Numbered from the whole stretch's first letter, positions 948-33,363 are shown. The stretch: DNA of 63,306 bases, filler included, from Reclinomonas americana ATCC 50394 (GCA_048213135.1; 14 parts of 14 records of this genome joined end to end with filler, not necessarily neighbours in it), one strand, 5' to 3'. Notes: generated by a model not told the origin, from the sequence alone. Translations and numbers: made by a program.

Positions 948-3900
948 TTATTCCTCCTCCTCCTCCTCCTCCTCCTCCTCCTCTTTCTTCACCACCTCCT
1001 CTTTCTTCACCACCTCCATCATCACCTGCTTTTCGTCACCCAGTGCTGCATTCACGCTTGTCAGTGTGATGTTGGCACGACATCCAACAACACAAGGTGC
1101 TCCTACATTGCTGCATTTGGGAGCACTCACCAGCACGTGCAATCTCCGCCTTTGAAAGACAACCGTCTCGAAGCAGAGTGGCCAGCAGGCCAGAGCAATT
1201 GTGAAGCAGATGCATGGCTTGTGTGACAATAGTCAGAAGAGTATTTGGGCCTCCCTTCCGAATGTGCTCGGCACATTCCTACAATCCGAGAAAAGCAAAG
1301 TCAGTCATCACATCATCGGAGCACAACAGCGATCCCAACAATCGTCGCCCACATGCCTCAGAGTGCCCACGCTCGTCAATCACAATCAGTGGTCTCTCGA
1401 CAGCATCCACCAGCGCAGCTCCTCGAAGACCGCTCTTCTAGTGATTCCACATGCACACGATGGCAGCTCGGTCAGGTGCCAGACACGGCACAAGCGGATG
1501 TGAACAAACTGGCACTCACCTCGATGAAGTTGCTAACGCTCTCAAGCACACCCTCAATTGACTTCAGCGTCTTGCTGCGTGCCAATCGGGCACTGCTGGC
1601 AAGACTCTTGCCAAATGCAGCCATGACTGCGGATGATGGGCTGCCCGGTTCATCCGACGGTATTCCGCAGTTGTCACAGGCAAGCTGGAAGAGAACGCGC
1701 TGATGATGAAGGACTGTGAATCGCATCACCACGGGTGCCATGAGACCGAATGCCTTCACCAGAACCCTCTTCTTGTTGCAACCCTGCTCTCGGGTGTGAC
1801 AGATGGGTGGGAGTGAGTGAGGTGTTTATGACAGCAATGTCGGCGATACAAAGCACGCAACAAGCAATCTCGCAAGCATCAATTGCTCGCTGATGCTCAA
1901 CTTCGCAGGATCAATCTTGTGGCGCTGTGAAACATAAGCCACGCAGTATTGAGACGTACCTCATGCAGGACAAAGAACGCAGCGTCGGGCGTACCTTATT
2001 TCTCTTCGCGTCATCGTCCACATTCTCGCTGTCGTCATCATCTTCCTGCTCACCCTCCCTCTCCTCCTCTTTCTTCACCATCTCCATCTCCCTCAGGGCT
2101 GTTCACTCATTTCTCAGCACATATAAGCACTGAAGCTACGAGCACAAGCAGCCAAACCTGTTTTACTGCACCATTCGGCAGCACGTGCAATATCCGCCTG
2201 CGAAAGGCAGCCGTCCCGAAGCAGAGTGGCCAACAGGTCTGGACAGCCGTGGAGAGCCTGCATAGCCTGTCTGACGTGCGGCAGAAGAGCATTATAAGTG
2301 CCTCCCTTCTGCAACTTTGCTGCTGATGCCTGTCATCCAAGCCACAGCAGTACTCGTGAGCCAGCTTTCAATGACGCGCATTAGCAACACACAATTTCAT
2401 ACGCGCCTCAGAGTAGCCACGGTCATCAAGCACAATTAGTGGCTTCTCGACGGCATCCACCAGCTCAGCTCCCCGAAGACCACTCTTCTGATGGTGACAT
2501 CCACGTCGAAGTCGAGTAACGTACCACACACAAAACAATCGGAAGGATACTGAAACAACACACCGACACACTCACCTCTATGAAGTTGCTGATGCTCTTG
2601 AGCACACCCTCAACTGACTTGGGCGTCTCACCACGTGCGTGGCTGGCACTATCGGCAAGACTCTTGCTGAATGCAGACATGACAGCGGCCGAAGGGCAGC
2701 CCCGTCCCTCCGATGGTATTCCGCATTCGTCACAAGCAAGCTGGAAGAAAAGGCGCTGATGATGGAGGACAGTGGATCCCAACACCACGGGTGCCATGAG
2801 ACCGAATGCCTTCACCAGCATCCTCTTCTTGTTGCAACCCTGCTCCGAGGCGCAGTGAGCAGATGTGAGCGTCAGCACTGTCGGTGACATGCAGAGATGA
2901 TAGCAACACGCAACAAGCAGTCTCGCCAGAATCAGTTGCTCGTTGATGCTCAGCTTCCCAGGACCACTCTTGCGGAGCTGTGAAGCGCAAACCATACGGA
3001 ATTAGGACACCCACCTGCTTCGCATCTAACGGAAACGAGCGACGGGCGTACCTTGCCATCGTCCTCGTCCTCCTGCTCTTCCTCCCTCTTCTCCTCTTTC
3101 TTCACCATACTCATCTCCCTCAGGGCTGTTCAATCGCTGTTTAGCACATGCGCACACTGTGCAGCTATGCTAGTCACGCAGCCAAACCTCGTTCACTGCA
3201 CCACTCGACAGCACGTGTGATCTCTGTCTTCGAAAGACAGCCGTCTCGAAGCAGAGTGGACAGCAGGCCAGGGCAGTTGTGGAGAGCTTGCATTGCCTGC
3301 GTGATAAACGGCAGAAGAGGGCTCTGCCGGCTGTGCCGCATCCATGGCAGTTGTGACGACTCCTGACACGCGAATTCCAGAACACGGAGCATGAGAATAT
3401 GGCAGCCCATATGAACAACGCACACTGAGCGCAGGGCAGCCACACCTCAGAAATGCCACGTTCATCAACCACAACCAGGGGTCTCTCAATGGCATTCGCC
3501 AGAGCAGCGCCACGCAGTTCACTCTTCTACATAATTCCACATACATTAGCGTTGATATTGACTCAGTTGCGCGAAATGAATGTAGCTCACCTCGATAAAG
3601 TCGCTCATCATCTGCAGCACTCCCTCAACCGACTTGGGCGTTGTGGTGCGTGCCTTGCTGACGGCATGGCCAAGGCTCTTGCCGAACGAGCTCACGACCG
3701 CCGACGACAGGCAGCCTGCTTTCGATGAAGGAACACCACACTCCTTGCTTGCCAAGTCAAAGAGAATGTGCTGATGATAGCAGATTGTGGATGGCAGCAC
3801 AATTGGTGCCATGACGCCAAACGCCATCACCAGTACCTTCCTCTTGTTGCAGCACTGCTCTCGATGAAATACATCGGTGGTGCGGTGAACACTCAAGTAG

Positions 3901-30400: not shown

Positions 30401-33363
30401 CATGACTACCGAAGAAGGACAAGACTACATGCACACGCAACAAGTAGCCTCGCCAGCATCAGTTGTTCGTCCTTGCTCATTGTGTGAGAATGACTCTCTT
30501 GTCGCTGTGAATGCGCTCCATGAGACGATGCCAGTATGCACTTACCCCATCATTCATGGTCATACCTTGCTCCTGTCACTCTCTCCCATGTCATCGTCCT
30601 CATCTTCCTCCTCCTCCTCCATCTCTTCTTTCTTCAGCACCTTCGTCTCCAGAAGAGCTGCGTGTCCTTCGTCAGCCCTGACTCAACGCACAGCAGGAGA
30701 ACGCATCCGATGCCATCAAACCTTTTTCGCTGCACCACTCGACAGCCCGTACGATCTCCGCCTGTGAGAGACAGCCGTCTCGAATCAGCGACACTTGCAA
30801 GCCAGGACACACTGGTAGCGCCTGCAAGGCGTGGGCTATGAGTGGCAGGAGACGGTCGCTGCAGTTCGGTTTCTTCTCCATCGTCTTCCATGACTCCTGA
30901 AACACATTCGACATCGTGAAAGAAGCGAGTGAGTGGACACAAATCGGGAAATGCAGAGAGCACAAAATGGAAAGTTTCCACACCTCCGAATGGCCACGTT
31001 CATCCACTACAATTAGTGGTCTCTCAATGGCATCTGCCAGGGCAGCGCCGCGCAGTTCACTCGTCTGCAAGAGTTACATATGTATTCATGCTGGTTCACT
31101 TTGCAGTCACGTGTGAAATGGATGGCACAGCACACCCACTCACCTCGATGAAGTCGCTCATGCTCAGGAGCACTCCTTCAACTGATTTGGGCGTCTTGGC
31201 GCGCGCATGCTGGACGGCATGGCCAAGACTCTTGGCGAATAAATCCATGACAGTGGGCGACGGACTGCCAGCTCCCGATGAAGGCATACCACACTCCTTG
31301 CAAGCAAGTTCAACGAGAACTCGCTGATGATGCAAAACAGTGGACGGCTTCAGAACTGGTGCCATGATACCGAATGCCATCACCAGAAGCTTCTTCTTGT
31401 TGCAACGCTGTTCGTGCACACGTACGCACGCACCAGGTGTTATGACAGGCTTGCACATGGCAGAGTGCAACTAATCTGCCTTGCTGGGGTATTGCACACG
31501 CAACAAGCAGTCTGTCCAGCACGATTCGGTCGTCCTTGCTCAAATCCGCATTGAATACATAGCGACTGTACGTGACGCGCTGCAAATACGCACCCCATGA
31601 GACATCAACTATCAACACAACTGCCTCCCAAGCCATACACAGGCGGCGACAACGTCGTACCTTGCTCGTCTTTGTTTCTTCACGATCATCACTTCCTGCA
31701 TCCTCCTGTGAACGCAACGCATCAGCGCGTGGCCGAGTCCAAGAAGACACACTCAGTCTTCGTCATTCATGAACTGTTGATGCTCACCTTGGTGTCATCT
31801 TCCTCATGCTTGATGCCATCGTCGTCTTTCTTCACCATCATTTTCACATCGCCAGATTCTGCGTAATGCTGGTCAACACCGATGCAAGCAACAACAACAG
31901 CCGCATGAGATCGCAGACCTTTTGATTGGCACCAAGCGACGGCGCGTACAATCTCGGCCTCAGAGAGGTGGTTGCGTCGAAGCAGAGAAGTCAGAACACC
32001 ATCGCACTCGCGCATCGCATCGATGGCCTCCGTGACAAACGGCTGAAGATGGTCCTTCCTGGTTTTATAGGAAGGGCGCAAGATCTCCCACGATTCCTGT
32101 CACAAACAGCCAAGTGCGCGAAGATCAGTCGACATGATCACATCAATCACAGAGGATCACGAAAAACAAACGCACCTCCGAATACCCGCGCACATCAACC
32201 ATTATCAGTGGTCTCACAACAGCATCCGCCAGAGCCGCGCCGCTGAGCTGGCTCATCTGCATTGTGCAATCATCTGCTTGTTGATTACATACCACAATCG
32301 CCGCAGGCACACATGCTTGCTCACCTCGATGTAGTTGCTCACGCTTTGCAGCACGCCCTCAACTGATTTGGGCATTCTGCCACGTGAACTATTGACAGCC
32401 CTGCCAAGACTCTTGCAAAACGCAATCTTGACTGCAGACGACGAGCAACCCCGCTCCGACGATGGAATTCTGCAGTCGTCGCAGGCAACGTCGAAGATAG
32501 CACTCTGATGGTGGACGACGGTGGACGGCTGGACAATTGATGCCATCAGGCCAAACGCCTTCACCAGGATCCTCTTCCGATTGCATCGCTGCGAGTGATG
32601 CAAGAAGAATGGTGAGTGCGACGAGGAGAAGGAGGAGGCTGAAGGGGTTGCAACGATGTCAGAGAGAGCATGCACACGCAACAAGCAGCTTGTTCAGCAA
32701 CAGCTTCTCGTCTGTGCTCAACTCCACTGGGGTTTTCGCAGCTCGACTCTTGCCACGCTGTGAATTCACACCATGCGTCATTGACACAAGAACCCAAATG
32801 CACATCGATGAAGAAACACAACAATGTTAGCGACAGAGAATTCACACCTTCTTCTTCTTTGGCGGTGCAAGCTCGTCGTCGCTGGGTGCATCCACCTGCA
32901 AAGAATGCGGTAAAACATCAGGTGTCAACTGCGATGTACGAGCGAGATGCAAGCGATGCGCATGCCTCATTGGAGTTCACCTCCAGAGAACGCTTGCGGG
33001 ATGATGTCTCATCTGAGTCACGTGCAGGCAAGTCCTCACTTTGATCCACTAGAGACGAATCTACTCGCTGTCTCCTTGCATGTTGCTGTGCAATCATGCC
33101 AAGAGAGAGAGAGAGAGAGTTCAGTGAGAGACATGCTCATCTTGGGATGACACACAATCAGTATACCTCGACGATGCCTTCCATCGCTGTGTGTTCCATG
33201 TGCTCCTGGTGGGCAGCTGCGTGTATGCATCGCCCAGACGAGACATCACTTGACGCGAGAACACCAATGACTGCAGAGAGAGAGAGAGAGAGACGCACCC
33301 TGCTCAGTGCGATTCTCCGAGTCACTTTGGGCAGCGGCAATGGCGGCTGTGCTCTCGTCAGCG
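27455..33363 (-). CDS. Array gene 5: paralog with 5 modules (A-B-C-D-E), 5' end truncated by gap
   Basis: Exon 2 homolog (ADESTAAIAAAQSDSENRTEQG) abuts the gap at 33363. Core exons fall within ORFs 32253-32684, 31096-31470, 29688-30362, 28961-29554 and 27962-28258. First in-frame stop is TAG at 27455, inside the poly-Glu tract. Confidence 0.7.

What the first reader, a model, noticed from the sequence alone, without database searches (positions are those of the whole stretch)
1565..32415. Hypervariable helix with an invariant Arg in every module - possible modular recognition code
Seen: between conserved FGKxL and KSVEGVL the residues vary even among same-type modules whose flanks are nearly identical. 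Type E: ASSARLAR, AKSARNAR, ADSANTAR, ASSAKMAR. Type C: GHAVSKAR, GHAVNKAR, AKLAQKAR, RSVVQHVR, AKLGQQAR. Type D: ADSASHAR, ADSANHVR, ATSASKAR, ADSANRAR. Type B: GHVVNMTR, GHVVSMAR, GHAVQHAR. Type A: GQTANNSR, GQAANDSR, GRAVNSSR. Length and the final Arg are fixed, and the variable residues are typical base-contacting ones (N, Q, R, K, H, S, D). A second variable triplet follows MAP[IV][VL] (QKS, KRN, LPS, MGS, LRS, IES). Inference: a diversifying recognition helix, analogous to C2H2 finger positions -1/3/6 in PRDM9 and KRAB-ZNFs, so each paralog could read a different composite target.
Basis: partly seen in the sequence, partly recalled or inferred. Interest (0 to 1): 0.82.

Follow-up and report, generated by a model that had tools for sequence, protein, structure and literature searches.

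The report
Fast-evolving helix face in orphan repeats
Five neighbouring copies of an unknown eukaryotic gene each encode four or five similar protein modules, and a few residues on one side of a predicted helix change faster than silent sites, as expected of a surface that recognises a changing partner, although what it binds is unknown.

Summary
I found 22 homologous 264-nt exons (88 aa), all on the minus strand. All have the same length and Arg69 is invariant.

The exons belong to five tandem paralogous genes. Each gene has 4-5 modules, and each module has five short exons (about 220 aa), not one. The window is a scaffold joined by 13 artificial linkers.

The variable positions are not the whole octet. 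They are codons 63, 66, 67, 70 and 71, spaced i, i+3, i+4, i+7, i+8 on a predicted helix, plus codon 21.

Codon site models that I wrote myself favour a class of about 5% of sites with omega about 3 (M2a vs M1a LRT 27.4; M8 vs M7 38.7). Those sites are exactly 21, 63, 66, 67 and 71. The signal survives four controls:
- dropping the between-type branches;
- dropping a hybrid module;
- using segment-specific trees;
- two null simulations.

Taken as whole regions, the segments evolve at about the neutral rate (pN/pS 0.9-1.3). Per-site tests that allow synonymous-rate variation single out only codon 21.

No homologue, Pfam family or structural match was found, and no zinc-finger or helix-turn-helix signature. 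Diversifying selection on an exposed helix face is therefore supported. A DNA-reading code is untested speculation.

The parts
948..7471 (-). Gene G5: putative start codon at 7471, small 5' exons, modules A-B-C-D-E (M18-M22), poly-Glu tail and a TAA stop ending at 948. It spans the artificial linker at 6931-7030.
8654..14360 (-). Gene G4: modules A-B-C and a D/E hybrid (M14-M17). The stop codon ends at 8654. It spans the linker at 13702-13801.
15227..20542 (-). Gene G3: an A/B hybrid module followed by C-D-E (M10-M13). The stop codon ends at 15227. It spans the linker at 20075-20174.
21761..26245 (-). Gene G2: modules B-C-D-E (M06-M09). An A module, if there is one, lies in the gap at 25847-25946. 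The stop codon ends at 21761.
27455..33363 (-). Gene G1: modules A-B-C-D-E (M01-M05). The 5' end is lost at the linker 33364-33463. The stop codon ends at 27455.
32325..32588 (-). M01, core exon of type A. Variable helix codons 62-71 lie at 32376-32405 and codon 21 at 32526-32528.
31144..31407 (-). M02, core exon of type B. Codons 62-71 lie at 31195-31224 and codon 21 at 31345-31347.
30087..30350 (-). M03, core exon of type C. Codons 62-71 lie at 30138-30167 and codon 21 at 30288-30290.
29072..29335 (-). M04, core exon of type D. Codons 62-71 lie at 29123-29152 and codon 21 at 29273-29275.
28019..28282 (-). M05, core exon of type E. Codons 62-71 lie at 28070-28099 and codon 21 at 28220-28222.
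25496..25759 (-). M06, core exon of type B. Codons 62-71 lie at 25547-25576 and codon 21 at 25697-25699.
24414..24677 (-). M07, core exon of type C. Codons 62-71 lie at 24465-24494 and codon 21 at 24615-24617.
23400..23663 (-). M08, core exon of type D. Codons 62-71 lie at 23451-23480 and codon 21 at 23601-23603.
22350..22613 (-). M09, core exon of type E. Codons 62-71 lie at 22401-22430 and codon 21 at 22551-22553.
18935..19198 (-). M10, hybrid core exon. The 5' flank and first 42 nt are A-like and the rest is B-like. Codons 62-71 lie at 18986-19015 and codon 21 at 19136-19138.
17861..18124 (-). M11, core exon of type C. Codons 62-71 lie at 17912-17941 and codon 21 at 18062-18064.
16847..17110 (-). 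M12, core exon of type D. Codons 62-71 lie at 16898-16927 and codon 21 at 17048-17050.
15804..16067 (-). M13, core exon of type E. Codons 62-71 lie at 15855-15884 and codon 21 at 16005-16007.
12477..12740 (-). M14, core exon of type A. Codons 62-71 lie at 12528-12557 and codon 21 at 12678-12680.
11298..11561 (-). M15, core exon of type B. Codons 62-71 lie at 11349-11378 and codon 21 at 11499-11501.
10238..10501 (-). M16, core exon of type C, the one module with a TAG acceptor. Codons 62-71 lie at 10289-10318 and codon 21 at 10439-10441.
9222..9485 (-). M17, core exon of type D. Its module switches to the E-type tail inside the third exon. Codons 62-71 lie at 9273-9302 and codon 21 at 9423-9425.
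5862..6125 (-). M18, core exon of type A. Codons 62-71 lie at 5913-5942 and codon 21 at 6063-6065.
4668..4931 (-). M19, core exon of type B. Codons 62-71 lie at 4719-4748 and codon 21 at 4869-4871.
3591..3854 (-). M20, core exon of type C. Codons 62-71 lie at 3642-3671 and codon 21 at 3792-3794.
2576..2839 (-). M21, core exon of type D. Codons 62-71 lie at 2627-2656 and codon 21 at 2777-2779.
1520..1783 (-). M22, core exon of type E. Codons 62-71 lie at 1571-1600 and codon 21 at 1721-1723.
1357..1437 (-). Example of the second exon of a module (81 nt, 27 aa, phase 0-0). All 22 copies are listed. The donor is GT in 14 and GC in 8 of 22.
1132..1278 (-). Example of the third exon of a module (about 150-178 nt), with a variable N-terminal part and a conserved helical part. 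All 22 copies are listed.

Best explanation
The region holds five tandem paralogous genes of a lineage-restricted ('orphan') eukaryotic family.

Shown or inferred directly from the sequence. Each protein has a charged N-terminal part with Lys-rich runs, then 4-5 modules of about 220 aa, then a poly-Glu tail. Each module is encoded by five short exons:
- an 88-aa basic, mostly helical core;
- a 27-aa piece;
- a piece of about 55 aa;
- an acidic linker;
- a short piece of about 22 aa.
The modules were multiplied and reshuffled by unequal crossing-over, because two hybrid modules are present.

Shown by codon statistics. In the core, one face of the C-terminal half of the third predicted helix (residues 63, 66, 67, 70, 71), together with residue 21 at the start of the second helix, accumulates amino-acid changes faster than silent changes. 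The interleaved residues 61, 62, 65, 68, Arg69 and 72 are held fixed, even at silent positions within a type.

Inferred. These residues form an exposed specificity-determining patch on a conserved scaffold. The patch is diversified between modules and between paralogues so that each binds a different variant of some partner. The partner is unknown. The basic core, the Lys-rich runs and the acidic linkers make a nuclear or nucleic-acid setting plausible, but nothing shows it.
For: Gene structure:
- There are 22 gap-free, open core exons.
- The core acceptor is CAG in 21 and TAG in 1 of 22 modules. The core donor is GT in 22 of 22.
- Four of the five module exons (core, second, third and the acidic linker) join in frame in the 17 modules that are not at the end of a gene. 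The last modules run into poly-Glu and a stop.
- Four putative start codons lie upstream, across the linkers.

Coding constraint:
- pN/pS is 0.39 over 8 independent within-type pairs.
- Divergence by codon position 1, 2 and 3 is 0.084, 0.055 and 0.155, against 0.12-0.20 in the introns.
- M0 omega is 0.43. 21 of 88 codons are under significant purifying selection, including Arg69 (p = 0.018).

Diversifying selection:
- M2a vs M1a gives LRT 27.4, with 4.7% of sites at omega 3.4. M8 vs M7 gives 38.7. M8 vs M8a gives 28.4.
- The sites with high posterior are 21, 63, 66, 67 and 71.
- With only within-type subtrees the LRT is 40.3. Without hybrid M10 it is 28.0.
- With three segment-specific trees the LRT is 22.6.
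- Over 175 codons of the first three exons the LRT is 24.3, and the strongest sites are the same.
- The observed LRT exceeds 37 of 37 null replicates (largest 14.5). It also exceeds 35 of 35 replicates simulated on discordant segment trees (largest 8.0).
- Tree-free lower bounds within types give at least 42 amino-acid changes against 2 silent ones at the five sites, and 134 against 123 at the other 83 codons.
- In types D and E, codons 62, 64 and 65 are identical in all 9 copies. Codons 63, 66 and 67 show 4, 6 and 7 different codons.

Helix:
- AlphaFold2 predicts helices at 4-15, 21-39, 51-71 and 76-87.
- The variability moment over residues 58-72 is 0.44-0.48 at 90-100 degrees, against 0.01-0.07 at 160-180 degrees.

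Charge: the core has a mean net charge of +5.4.
Against: - The structure model is weak (mean pLDDT 58, pTM 0.35). I could not obtain coordinates, so exposure and the closeness of residue 21 to residues 67-71 are inferred, not seen.
- Taken as regions, the octet and the triplet are only about neutral (pN/pS 0.89, 0.94 and 1.27; binomial p 0.5-0.7).
- With site-specific synonymous rates, only codon 21 is individually significant (p = 0.002, which does not survive correction for 88 tests). Codon 66 has a high synonymous rate (alpha 4.7 against beta 1.7).
- In the 8 independent pairs, the counts at the top sites (7, 6, 4 and 8 non-synonymous differences) are not far from what the largest of about 20 neutral sites would give.
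- The site models are my own code. The null fits used a single starting point. One of 37 null replicates reached LRT 14.5.
- No transcript evidence was available, so the exon model rests on conservation and splice motifs. The donor of the fifth exon is weak.
- There is no homologue or known fold to lean on for function.
Confidence: 0.5

Rival explanations
1. Neutral drift. The variable positions are simply solvent-exposed and unconstrained (omega about 1). The apparent omega > 1 would then be produced by gene conversion among repeats, multi-nucleotide mutations, local mutation-rate differences and choosing the sites after seeing the data. No recognition function would be implied.
For: - Regional pN/pS is 0.89-1.27 and not above 1.
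- The per-site test with free synonymous rate is significant only at codon 21. Codon 66 has a raised synonymous rate.
- Hybrid modules prove that recombination occurs in the array.
- Many changes at these codons involve 2-3 nucleotides, which single-step codon models over-count.
- One null replicate reached LRT 14.5.
Against: - The LRT stays between 22.6 and 40.3 when between-type branches or the hybrid are removed, or when segment-specific trees are used.
- It exceeds all 37 and all 35 null replicates, including those simulated with discordant trees.
- The tree-free bounds are 42 amino-acid against 2 silent changes at the five sites. My rough neutral expectation is about 3:1, and the other codons give 134:123.
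- Variable codons alternate with codons that are invariant even at silent positions, at a resolution of one or two codons. Conversion tracts cannot produce that pattern.
Confidence: 0.25
2. Each module is a sequence-specific DNA-binding (or RNA-binding) unit. The variable helix is its recognition helix, as in zinc-finger positions -1/3/6, so that each paralogue reads a different composite target.
For: - The selected positions lie on one face of a predicted helix next to an invariant Arg.
- The core is basic, with mean net charge +5.4.
- Lys-rich runs and acidic linkers resemble those of nuclear proteins. This is by eye and was not tested.
- There are only weak leads to helix-turn-helix families: Atlas feature scores of 0.84 to clusters in which 22-38% of members carry HTH_32 or HTH_21, and HTH_24 at E = 0.058 for one third exon.
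Against: - No nucleic-acid-binding family is matched. 0 of 22 cores have a Pfam hit better than E = 0.13, and single scans found none.
- The PDB sequence searches found nothing below E = 0.26. Foldseek found nothing below E = 3.9.
- There is no C2H2 pattern. The loop between predicted helices 2 and 3 is 11 residues, not a helix-turn-helix turn.
- The residues at the variable sites (H, D, K, S, N, Q, M, T, E, P, G) are ordinary surface residues and include many acidic ones.
- The Atlas scores are below the tool's own 0.9 threshold.
Confidence: 0.12
3. Not functional genes. The array would be decaying duplicated sequence, or an assembly artefact of a collapsed repeat, and the variation would be noise.
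For: - The window is a scaffold with gaps at microsatellites. Each gene is interrupted by a linker.
- Two genes have hybrid modules and one lacks its A module.
- No protein of the family is in the databases searched.
Against: - 22 of 22 core exons and 22 of 22 second exons are open and of identical length. Splice sites are conserved.
- pN/pS is 0.39 and third positions diverge most.
- 21 codons are under significant purifying selection.
- The copies differ by 5-15%, so they are not assembly duplicates.
- The neighbouring BEACH gene also has no close database relative (best 49% identity). Absence from the databases therefore reflects the lineage, not the gene.
Confidence: 0.03

Closest known systems
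Tandem C2H2 zinc-finger arrays under positive selection (PRDM9, KRAB-ZNF).
   Same: There are repeated modules within one protein. The scaffold is conserved. Positive selection is concentrated on a few positions spaced 3-4 residues apart on one helix face. The paralogues lie in a tandem cluster.
   Different: - There is no Cys2-His2 pattern and no zinc-finger Pfam match.
- The module is about 220 aa spread over five exons, not 28 aa repeated within one exon.
- No DNA binding is shown.
Helical repeat proteins with a residue code (TALE, PPR, PUF). Their properties are recalled.
   Same: The architecture is modular and mostly helical. A small number of hypervariable residues per repeat would set the specificity.
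   Different: - The repeat is about six times longer.
- There are only 4-5 modules per protein.
- No sequence or family match was found.
- The modules fall into fixed positional types A-E rather than forming a uniform array.
Multi-exon repeat modules of several subtypes amplified by unequal crossing-over, for example the Olduvai/NBPF domains of primates. This is recalled and is only an analogy of gene architecture.
   Same: A higher-order repeat is built from multi-exon modules of distinct subtypes. Hybrid modules and copy-number differences occur between tandem paralogues.
   Different: The sequences are unrelated and the organism is different. Here the fast-evolving sites are mapped to a specific helix face.
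P0003, an unnamed 488-aa protein with a repeat of about 97 aa. It was the only non-trivial hit of the profile search over 1.84 billion proteins.
   Same: It shares a motif over 35 columns around the variable helix (an ..PS..V...F.KS....... R...P.S.. pattern). The hmmsearch E-value is 3.5e-4. The hhalign probability is 55% with E = 1.2e-4.
   Different: Only 35 of 88 columns align, at 29% identity. P0003 itself has no Pfam family above its cut-off apart from a marginal, implausible TraE match (25.2 against 24.8 bits). The match may be chance between two repeat proteins.

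Membership tests
   The alignment of 22 cores shows His26-His27 and Cys36-x2-Cys39, in the wrong order and spacing. Cys36 is lost in 4 of the 5 type C modules and Cys39 in M05. 0 of 22 cores match any zinc-finger model. The only such row is zf-Mss51 at E = 0.14 in 1 of 22.
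Helix-turn-helix DNA-binding domains (Pfam HTH families) | A significant match to an HTH profile. A short turn of 3-4 residues between the two helices. | tested here: not met
   There is no HTH hit for the 22 cores. HTH_24 scores E = 0.058, below its cut-off, for 1 of 5 second- and third-exon peptides scanned. The Atlas leads score 0.84. The predicted loop between helices 2 and 3 is 11 residues.
TALE / PPR / PUF-type code repeats | Tandem helical repeats of about 34-36 aa that match the family profiles. | tested here: not met
   The repeat unit is about 220 aa over five exons. No Pfam match was found.
Functional class: module with a diversifying recognition surface | Omega > 1 at a minority of sites, with purifying selection on the scaffold. 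| tested here: met
   The tests of M2a vs M1a, M8 vs M7 and M8 vs M8a give LRTs of 27.4, 38.7 and 28.4. Caveat: the per-site test with free synonymous rate is significant only at codon 21.
Functional class: module with a diversifying recognition surface | The selected sites are clustered on one exposed face. | tested here: inconclusive
   Sites 63, 66, 67, 70 and 71 have the i, i+3, i+4, i+7, i+8 spacing, and the variability has a helical period. The model is of low confidence (pLDDT 58) and no coordinates were available to measure exposure.
Functional class: module with a diversifying recognition surface | The variants differ in what they bind. | not testable with these tools
   This needs binding assays. 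No partner is known.

The most novel reading that the evidence does not exclude
The 88-aa basic core is a previously undescribed nucleic-acid-reading or chromatin-reading module. Its specificity would be set by about six residues (21, 63, 66, 67, 70, 71) presented from one helix face beside an invariant Arg. The 4-5 modules of each protein would then read a composite target. The five tandem paralogues would read different targets, giving a new programmable recognition code in a poorly sampled eukaryotic lineage.
Probability: 0.1. Interest if true: 0.85.

Novelty: new variant of a known kind. Interest (0 to 1): 0.5.

Why it matters
If the reading is right, this is a domain family with no detectable relatives. 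Natural selection has marked out its small specificity patch: five or six residues on a conserved helical scaffold, repeated 22 times with different residues.

That gives a ready-made map for experiments. The patch can be swapped between modules and the change in binding measured. It would also add a case, outside animals and plants, of a tandem gene cluster that evolves by module shuffling together with site-specific diversification.

If the partner turned out to be DNA or RNA, it would be a new modular recognition code. If the partner is a protein, for example one from a parasite, a host or a selfish element, the cluster would point to an arms race in an organism for which little is known.

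Tried and rejected
- RNA evidence. The look-up of sequencing runs on window 1-6930 listed no RNA holder. The exon model has no transcript support or contradiction.
- Whole genome. None is held for this window.
- Earlier findings.
I did no reconstruction. Instead I used pairwise counts on edge-disjoint pairs and likelihoods that sum over unobserved states.
- Homologue searches:
  - Word-indexed search of longer proteins with one module: none.
  - Profile of the 22 cores against 1.84 billion representatives: 3 hits with E no better than 2.6e-6. Two are unrelated repeat proteins and one (P0003) is ambiguous.
  - Profile of the third exon against longer proteins: none.
- Family libraries. Pfam found nothing and NCBIfam found nothing.
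- Solved structures. By sequence, the best E-values were 0.26 and 0.45.
- Fold search. Foldseek of the weak model against the PDB gave a best E of 3.9. I did not run the VIA searches, because a model with pLDDT 58 would give meaningless matches.
- Atlas. Only sub-threshold leads (0.88 and below).
- Tandem Repeats Finder with score >= 200 found nothing. Its longest period is 500 and the modules are about 1.05 kb apart.
- Literature. Full-text searches for five peptide motifs of the module found 0 papers. I searched for nothing else, so I make no wider claim about what is in print.
- Complex prediction (core against third exon). The queue was full and the job was not run or counted. I did not send it again because the report does not depend on it.
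- A zinc site (His26/His27 with Cys36/Cys39). I considered and rejected it, because Cys36 or Cys39 is missing in several modules.
- My first guess that the five units were one long gene interrupted by gaps. I rejected it. Each unit ends in poly-Glu and a stop, and is followed by a conserved putative start codon.
- A SUI1/DENR-like reading of the ORF at 58756-59412, which I made by eye. Pfam did not support it.

Full report
**What is in the window.**
- All modules lie on the minus strand. A phmmer search of every six-frame ORF with one module found 22 matches and no more (E 2e-28 to 2e-58).
- The window is not one continuous sequence. It holds 13 identical linkers, each 44 N, then TTAATTAATTAA, then 44 N. 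Almost all are flanked by microsatellites. I read them as artificial joins or gap markers of a scaffold.
- Five of the linkers cut the array into five units.
- Conserved putative start codons lie just across four of the linkers, at 7471, 14360, 20542 and 26245 on the minus strand. Shuffled sequence gave 0 such matches. The pieces are therefore in their true order.

**Gene structure (inferred from conservation; there is no RNA evidence).** I aligned the 22 module units with their flanks.
- Each module has five short exons separated by introns of about 70-110 nt.
- The core exon is 264 nt. Its acceptor is CAG in 21 and TAG in 1 of 22. Its donor is GT in 22 of 22.
- The second exon is 81 nt. Its donor is GT in 14 and GC in 8 of 22.
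- The third exon is about 150-178 nt and ends in phase 1.
- The fourth exon is acidic. A short fifth exon precedes the next core.
- The first four exons join in frame in every module that is not last in its gene.
- After the last module of each unit, the fourth exon runs into 27-34 residues that are mostly Glu or Asp and then a stop codon.
- About 1.2 kb further on there is a conserved ATG.
- So there are five tandem genes: G1 (M01-M05), G2 (M06-M09), G3 (M10-M13), G4 (M14-M17) and G5 (M18-M22).
- The donor of the fifth exon (CTT|GTTGCG) is weak, and that boundary is uncertain.

**Module types and shuffling.**
- A maximum-likelihood tree of the cores gives types A, B, C, D and E in positional order.
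Its 5' flank and first 42 nt are A-like: 37-40 of 42 identical to type A, against 32 of 42 to type B. The rest is B-like: 163-176 of 222, against 131-136 of 222.
- M17 is D-like through its core and E-like from the third exon onward.
- These are footprints of unequal crossing-over between modules.

**The observation.**
- All cores have the same length.
- Arg69 is invariant (CGC in 18, CGT in 4). It is under significant purifying selection in my per-site test (p = 0.018).
- Within the octet, 62, 65 and 68 are small hydrophobic residues that vary little. The high-entropy columns are 63, 64, 66, 67, 70 and 71.

**Are these real coding exons under constraint?** Yes.
- In 8 edge-disjoint within-type pairs, pN/pS is 0.39.
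- Divergence at codon positions 1, 2 and 3 is 0.084, 0.055 and 0.155. The introns diverge by 0.12-0.20.

**Is the variable segment under diversifying selection?**

Region by region, it is not.
- pN/pS is 0.89 for codons 62-68, 0.94 for 62-72 without 69, and 1.27 for 20-22. None is above 1 by a binomial test.
- The excess of amino-acid change over the rest of the exon is nevertheless clear (Fisher p = 0.008; the region was chosen after seeing it).

Site by site, the picture changes. I wrote Goldman-Yang F3x4 site models with branch lengths fixed from an M0 fit (omega 0.43).

| Comparison | Log-likelihoods | LRT | p | Selected class |
|---|---|---|---|---|
| M2a vs M1a | -2809.97 vs -2823.65 | 27.4 | about 1e-6 | 4.7% of sites, omega 3.4 |
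| M8 vs M7 | -2805.77 vs -2825.12 | 38.7 | about 4e-9 | 5.4% of sites, omega 3.0 |
| M8 vs M8a | -2805.77 vs -2819.96 | 28.4 | about 5e-8 | as for M8 |

- The naive posteriors pick codons 21, 63, 67 and 71 in both models. Codon 66 is picked in M8.

Controls:
- Only the within-type subtrees: LRT 40.3.
- Without M10: LRT 28.0.
- Three segment-specific trees: LRT 22.6.
- 175 codons of the first three exons: LRT 24.3, with the same four sites strongest. Only two weaker sites (P 0.54-0.63) appear, in the variable start of the third exon.
- 37 replicates simulated under M1a: the largest LRT is 14.5 and the next 5.6.
- 35 replicates simulated on three discordant trees and analysed on one tree: the largest LRT is 8.0.
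- Tree-free bounds within types: at least 42 amino-acid against 2 silent state changes at the five sites, and 134 against 123 elsewhere.

Results against the reading:
- A per-site test with its own synonymous rate is significant only at codon 21 (p = 0.002, not corrected for 88 tests). At codon 66 the synonymous rate is itself high.
- The pairwise counts at the top sites are not far above what the largest of about 20 neutral sites could give.
- My code ignores multi-nucleotide changes.
- The null fits used one starting point.

The strongest qualitative argument comes from types D and E. Codons 62, 64 and 65 are identical in all 9 copies, silent positions included. Codons 63, 66 and 67 between and beside them show 4, 6 and 7 different codons. 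Neither conversion tracts nor regional relaxation produces that alternation.

**Structure.**
- AlphaFold2 with the 22-row alignment gives a weak model (pLDDT 58, pTM 0.35). Its helices are 4-15, 21-39, 51-71 and 76-87. The blocks covering residues 51-70 are its best part, with pLDDT 65-71.
- The variability of residues 58-72 has a helical period.
- Sites 63, 66, 67, 70 and 71 fall on one face. Residues 61, 65, 68 and 72 fall on the opposite, conserved face. This follows from the spacing and was not measured.
- Residue 21 (Pro in 8, Arg in 6, Gly in 5 modules) sits at the start of helix 2.
- If helices 2 and 3 form an antiparallel hairpin, residue 21 would lie near 67-71. That is inference only.

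**What it is like.** Nothing known matches.
- Pfam: 0 of 22 cores match better than E = 0.13.
- NCBIfam: nothing.
- PDB sequences: nothing.
- Foldseek: nothing.
- Protein libraries of 5.8 and 1.84 billion sequences: nothing convincing.
- One ambiguous hit, P0003, shares a 35-column motif around the helix (hhalign probability 55%).
- Absence of homologues is weak evidence of novelty. A neighbouring BEACH-domain gene (Pfam E = 1.2e-16) finds no relative above 49% identity over most of the query. The organism's lineage is therefore barely represented in the library.
- The core is basic, with mean charge +5.4. The linkers are acidic with Lys-rich ends. This fits a nuclear protein but does not show one.

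**Verdict.**
- The further step to a DNA recognition code is not supported by any result here.
- I put the recognition-surface reading at about 0.5, neutral drift plus artefact at about 0.25, the DNA or RNA code at about 0.12, and non-functional sequence at about 0.03.

Noticed in passing
window 6931-7030, 13702-13801, 20075-20174, 25847-25946, 33364-33463 and eight more further right: There are thirteen identical linkers, each 44 N, then TTAATTAATTAA, then 44 N. They are mostly flanked by microsatellites (GAA, GGA, AC, CT, TACG runs). They look like artificial joins or gap markers of a scaffold, so distances across them are unknown.
   Followed up: partly
window 18935-19198 (M10) and 8844-9485 (M17): Two modules are hybrids: A/B within the core exon, and D/E within the third exon. 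This points to unequal crossing-over between modules. It also explains why genes G3 and G4 have four modules.
   Followed up: yes
second exons of the modules, for example window 28903-28983, 27847-27927 and 1357-1437: 8 of 22 second exons, among the type D and E modules, have a GC rather than a GT donor (GAG|GCATGT or GAG|GCGCGT). The reading frame is kept. They look like GC-AG introns, which RNA data could confirm.
   Followed up: partly
window about 46400-52900, + strand: A large BEACH-domain and WD40 gene with introns (Pfam Beach E = 1.2e-16; WD40-type propeller hits). Its best database relative is only 49% identical, so the genome's lineage is poorly sampled.
   Followed up: partly
window 34764-35978, - strand: WD40-repeat coding sequence (Pfam WD40 E = 3.9e-25), split by a linker at 35156-35255.
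   Followed up: partly
window 62837-63049, + strand: A fragment that resembles a G-protein beta subunit WD40 (Pfam WD40_Gbeta E = 1.7e-9, below the curated cut-off). It runs into a (GAGA)n and TACG-type repeat at the window end.
   Followed up: partly
window 36587-37519 (+) and 58756-59412 (-): Two long ORFs (310 and 218 aa) that look protein-like by eye but have no Pfam match at E <= 0.001.
   Followed up: partly
protein P0003 (library representative, 488 aa): An unnamed protein with a repeat of about 97 aa. It shares a 35-residue motif with the variable-helix region (hmmsearch E = 3.5e-4; hhalign probability 55%). It could be a very distant relative or chance.
   Followed up: partly
third exons, first ~17 codons, for example window 9958-10008: The start of the third exon is the only part of the module with insertions and deletions. 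It is very variable between types. Two of its codons reach posterior 0.54-0.63 for the omega > 1 class.
   Followed up: partly
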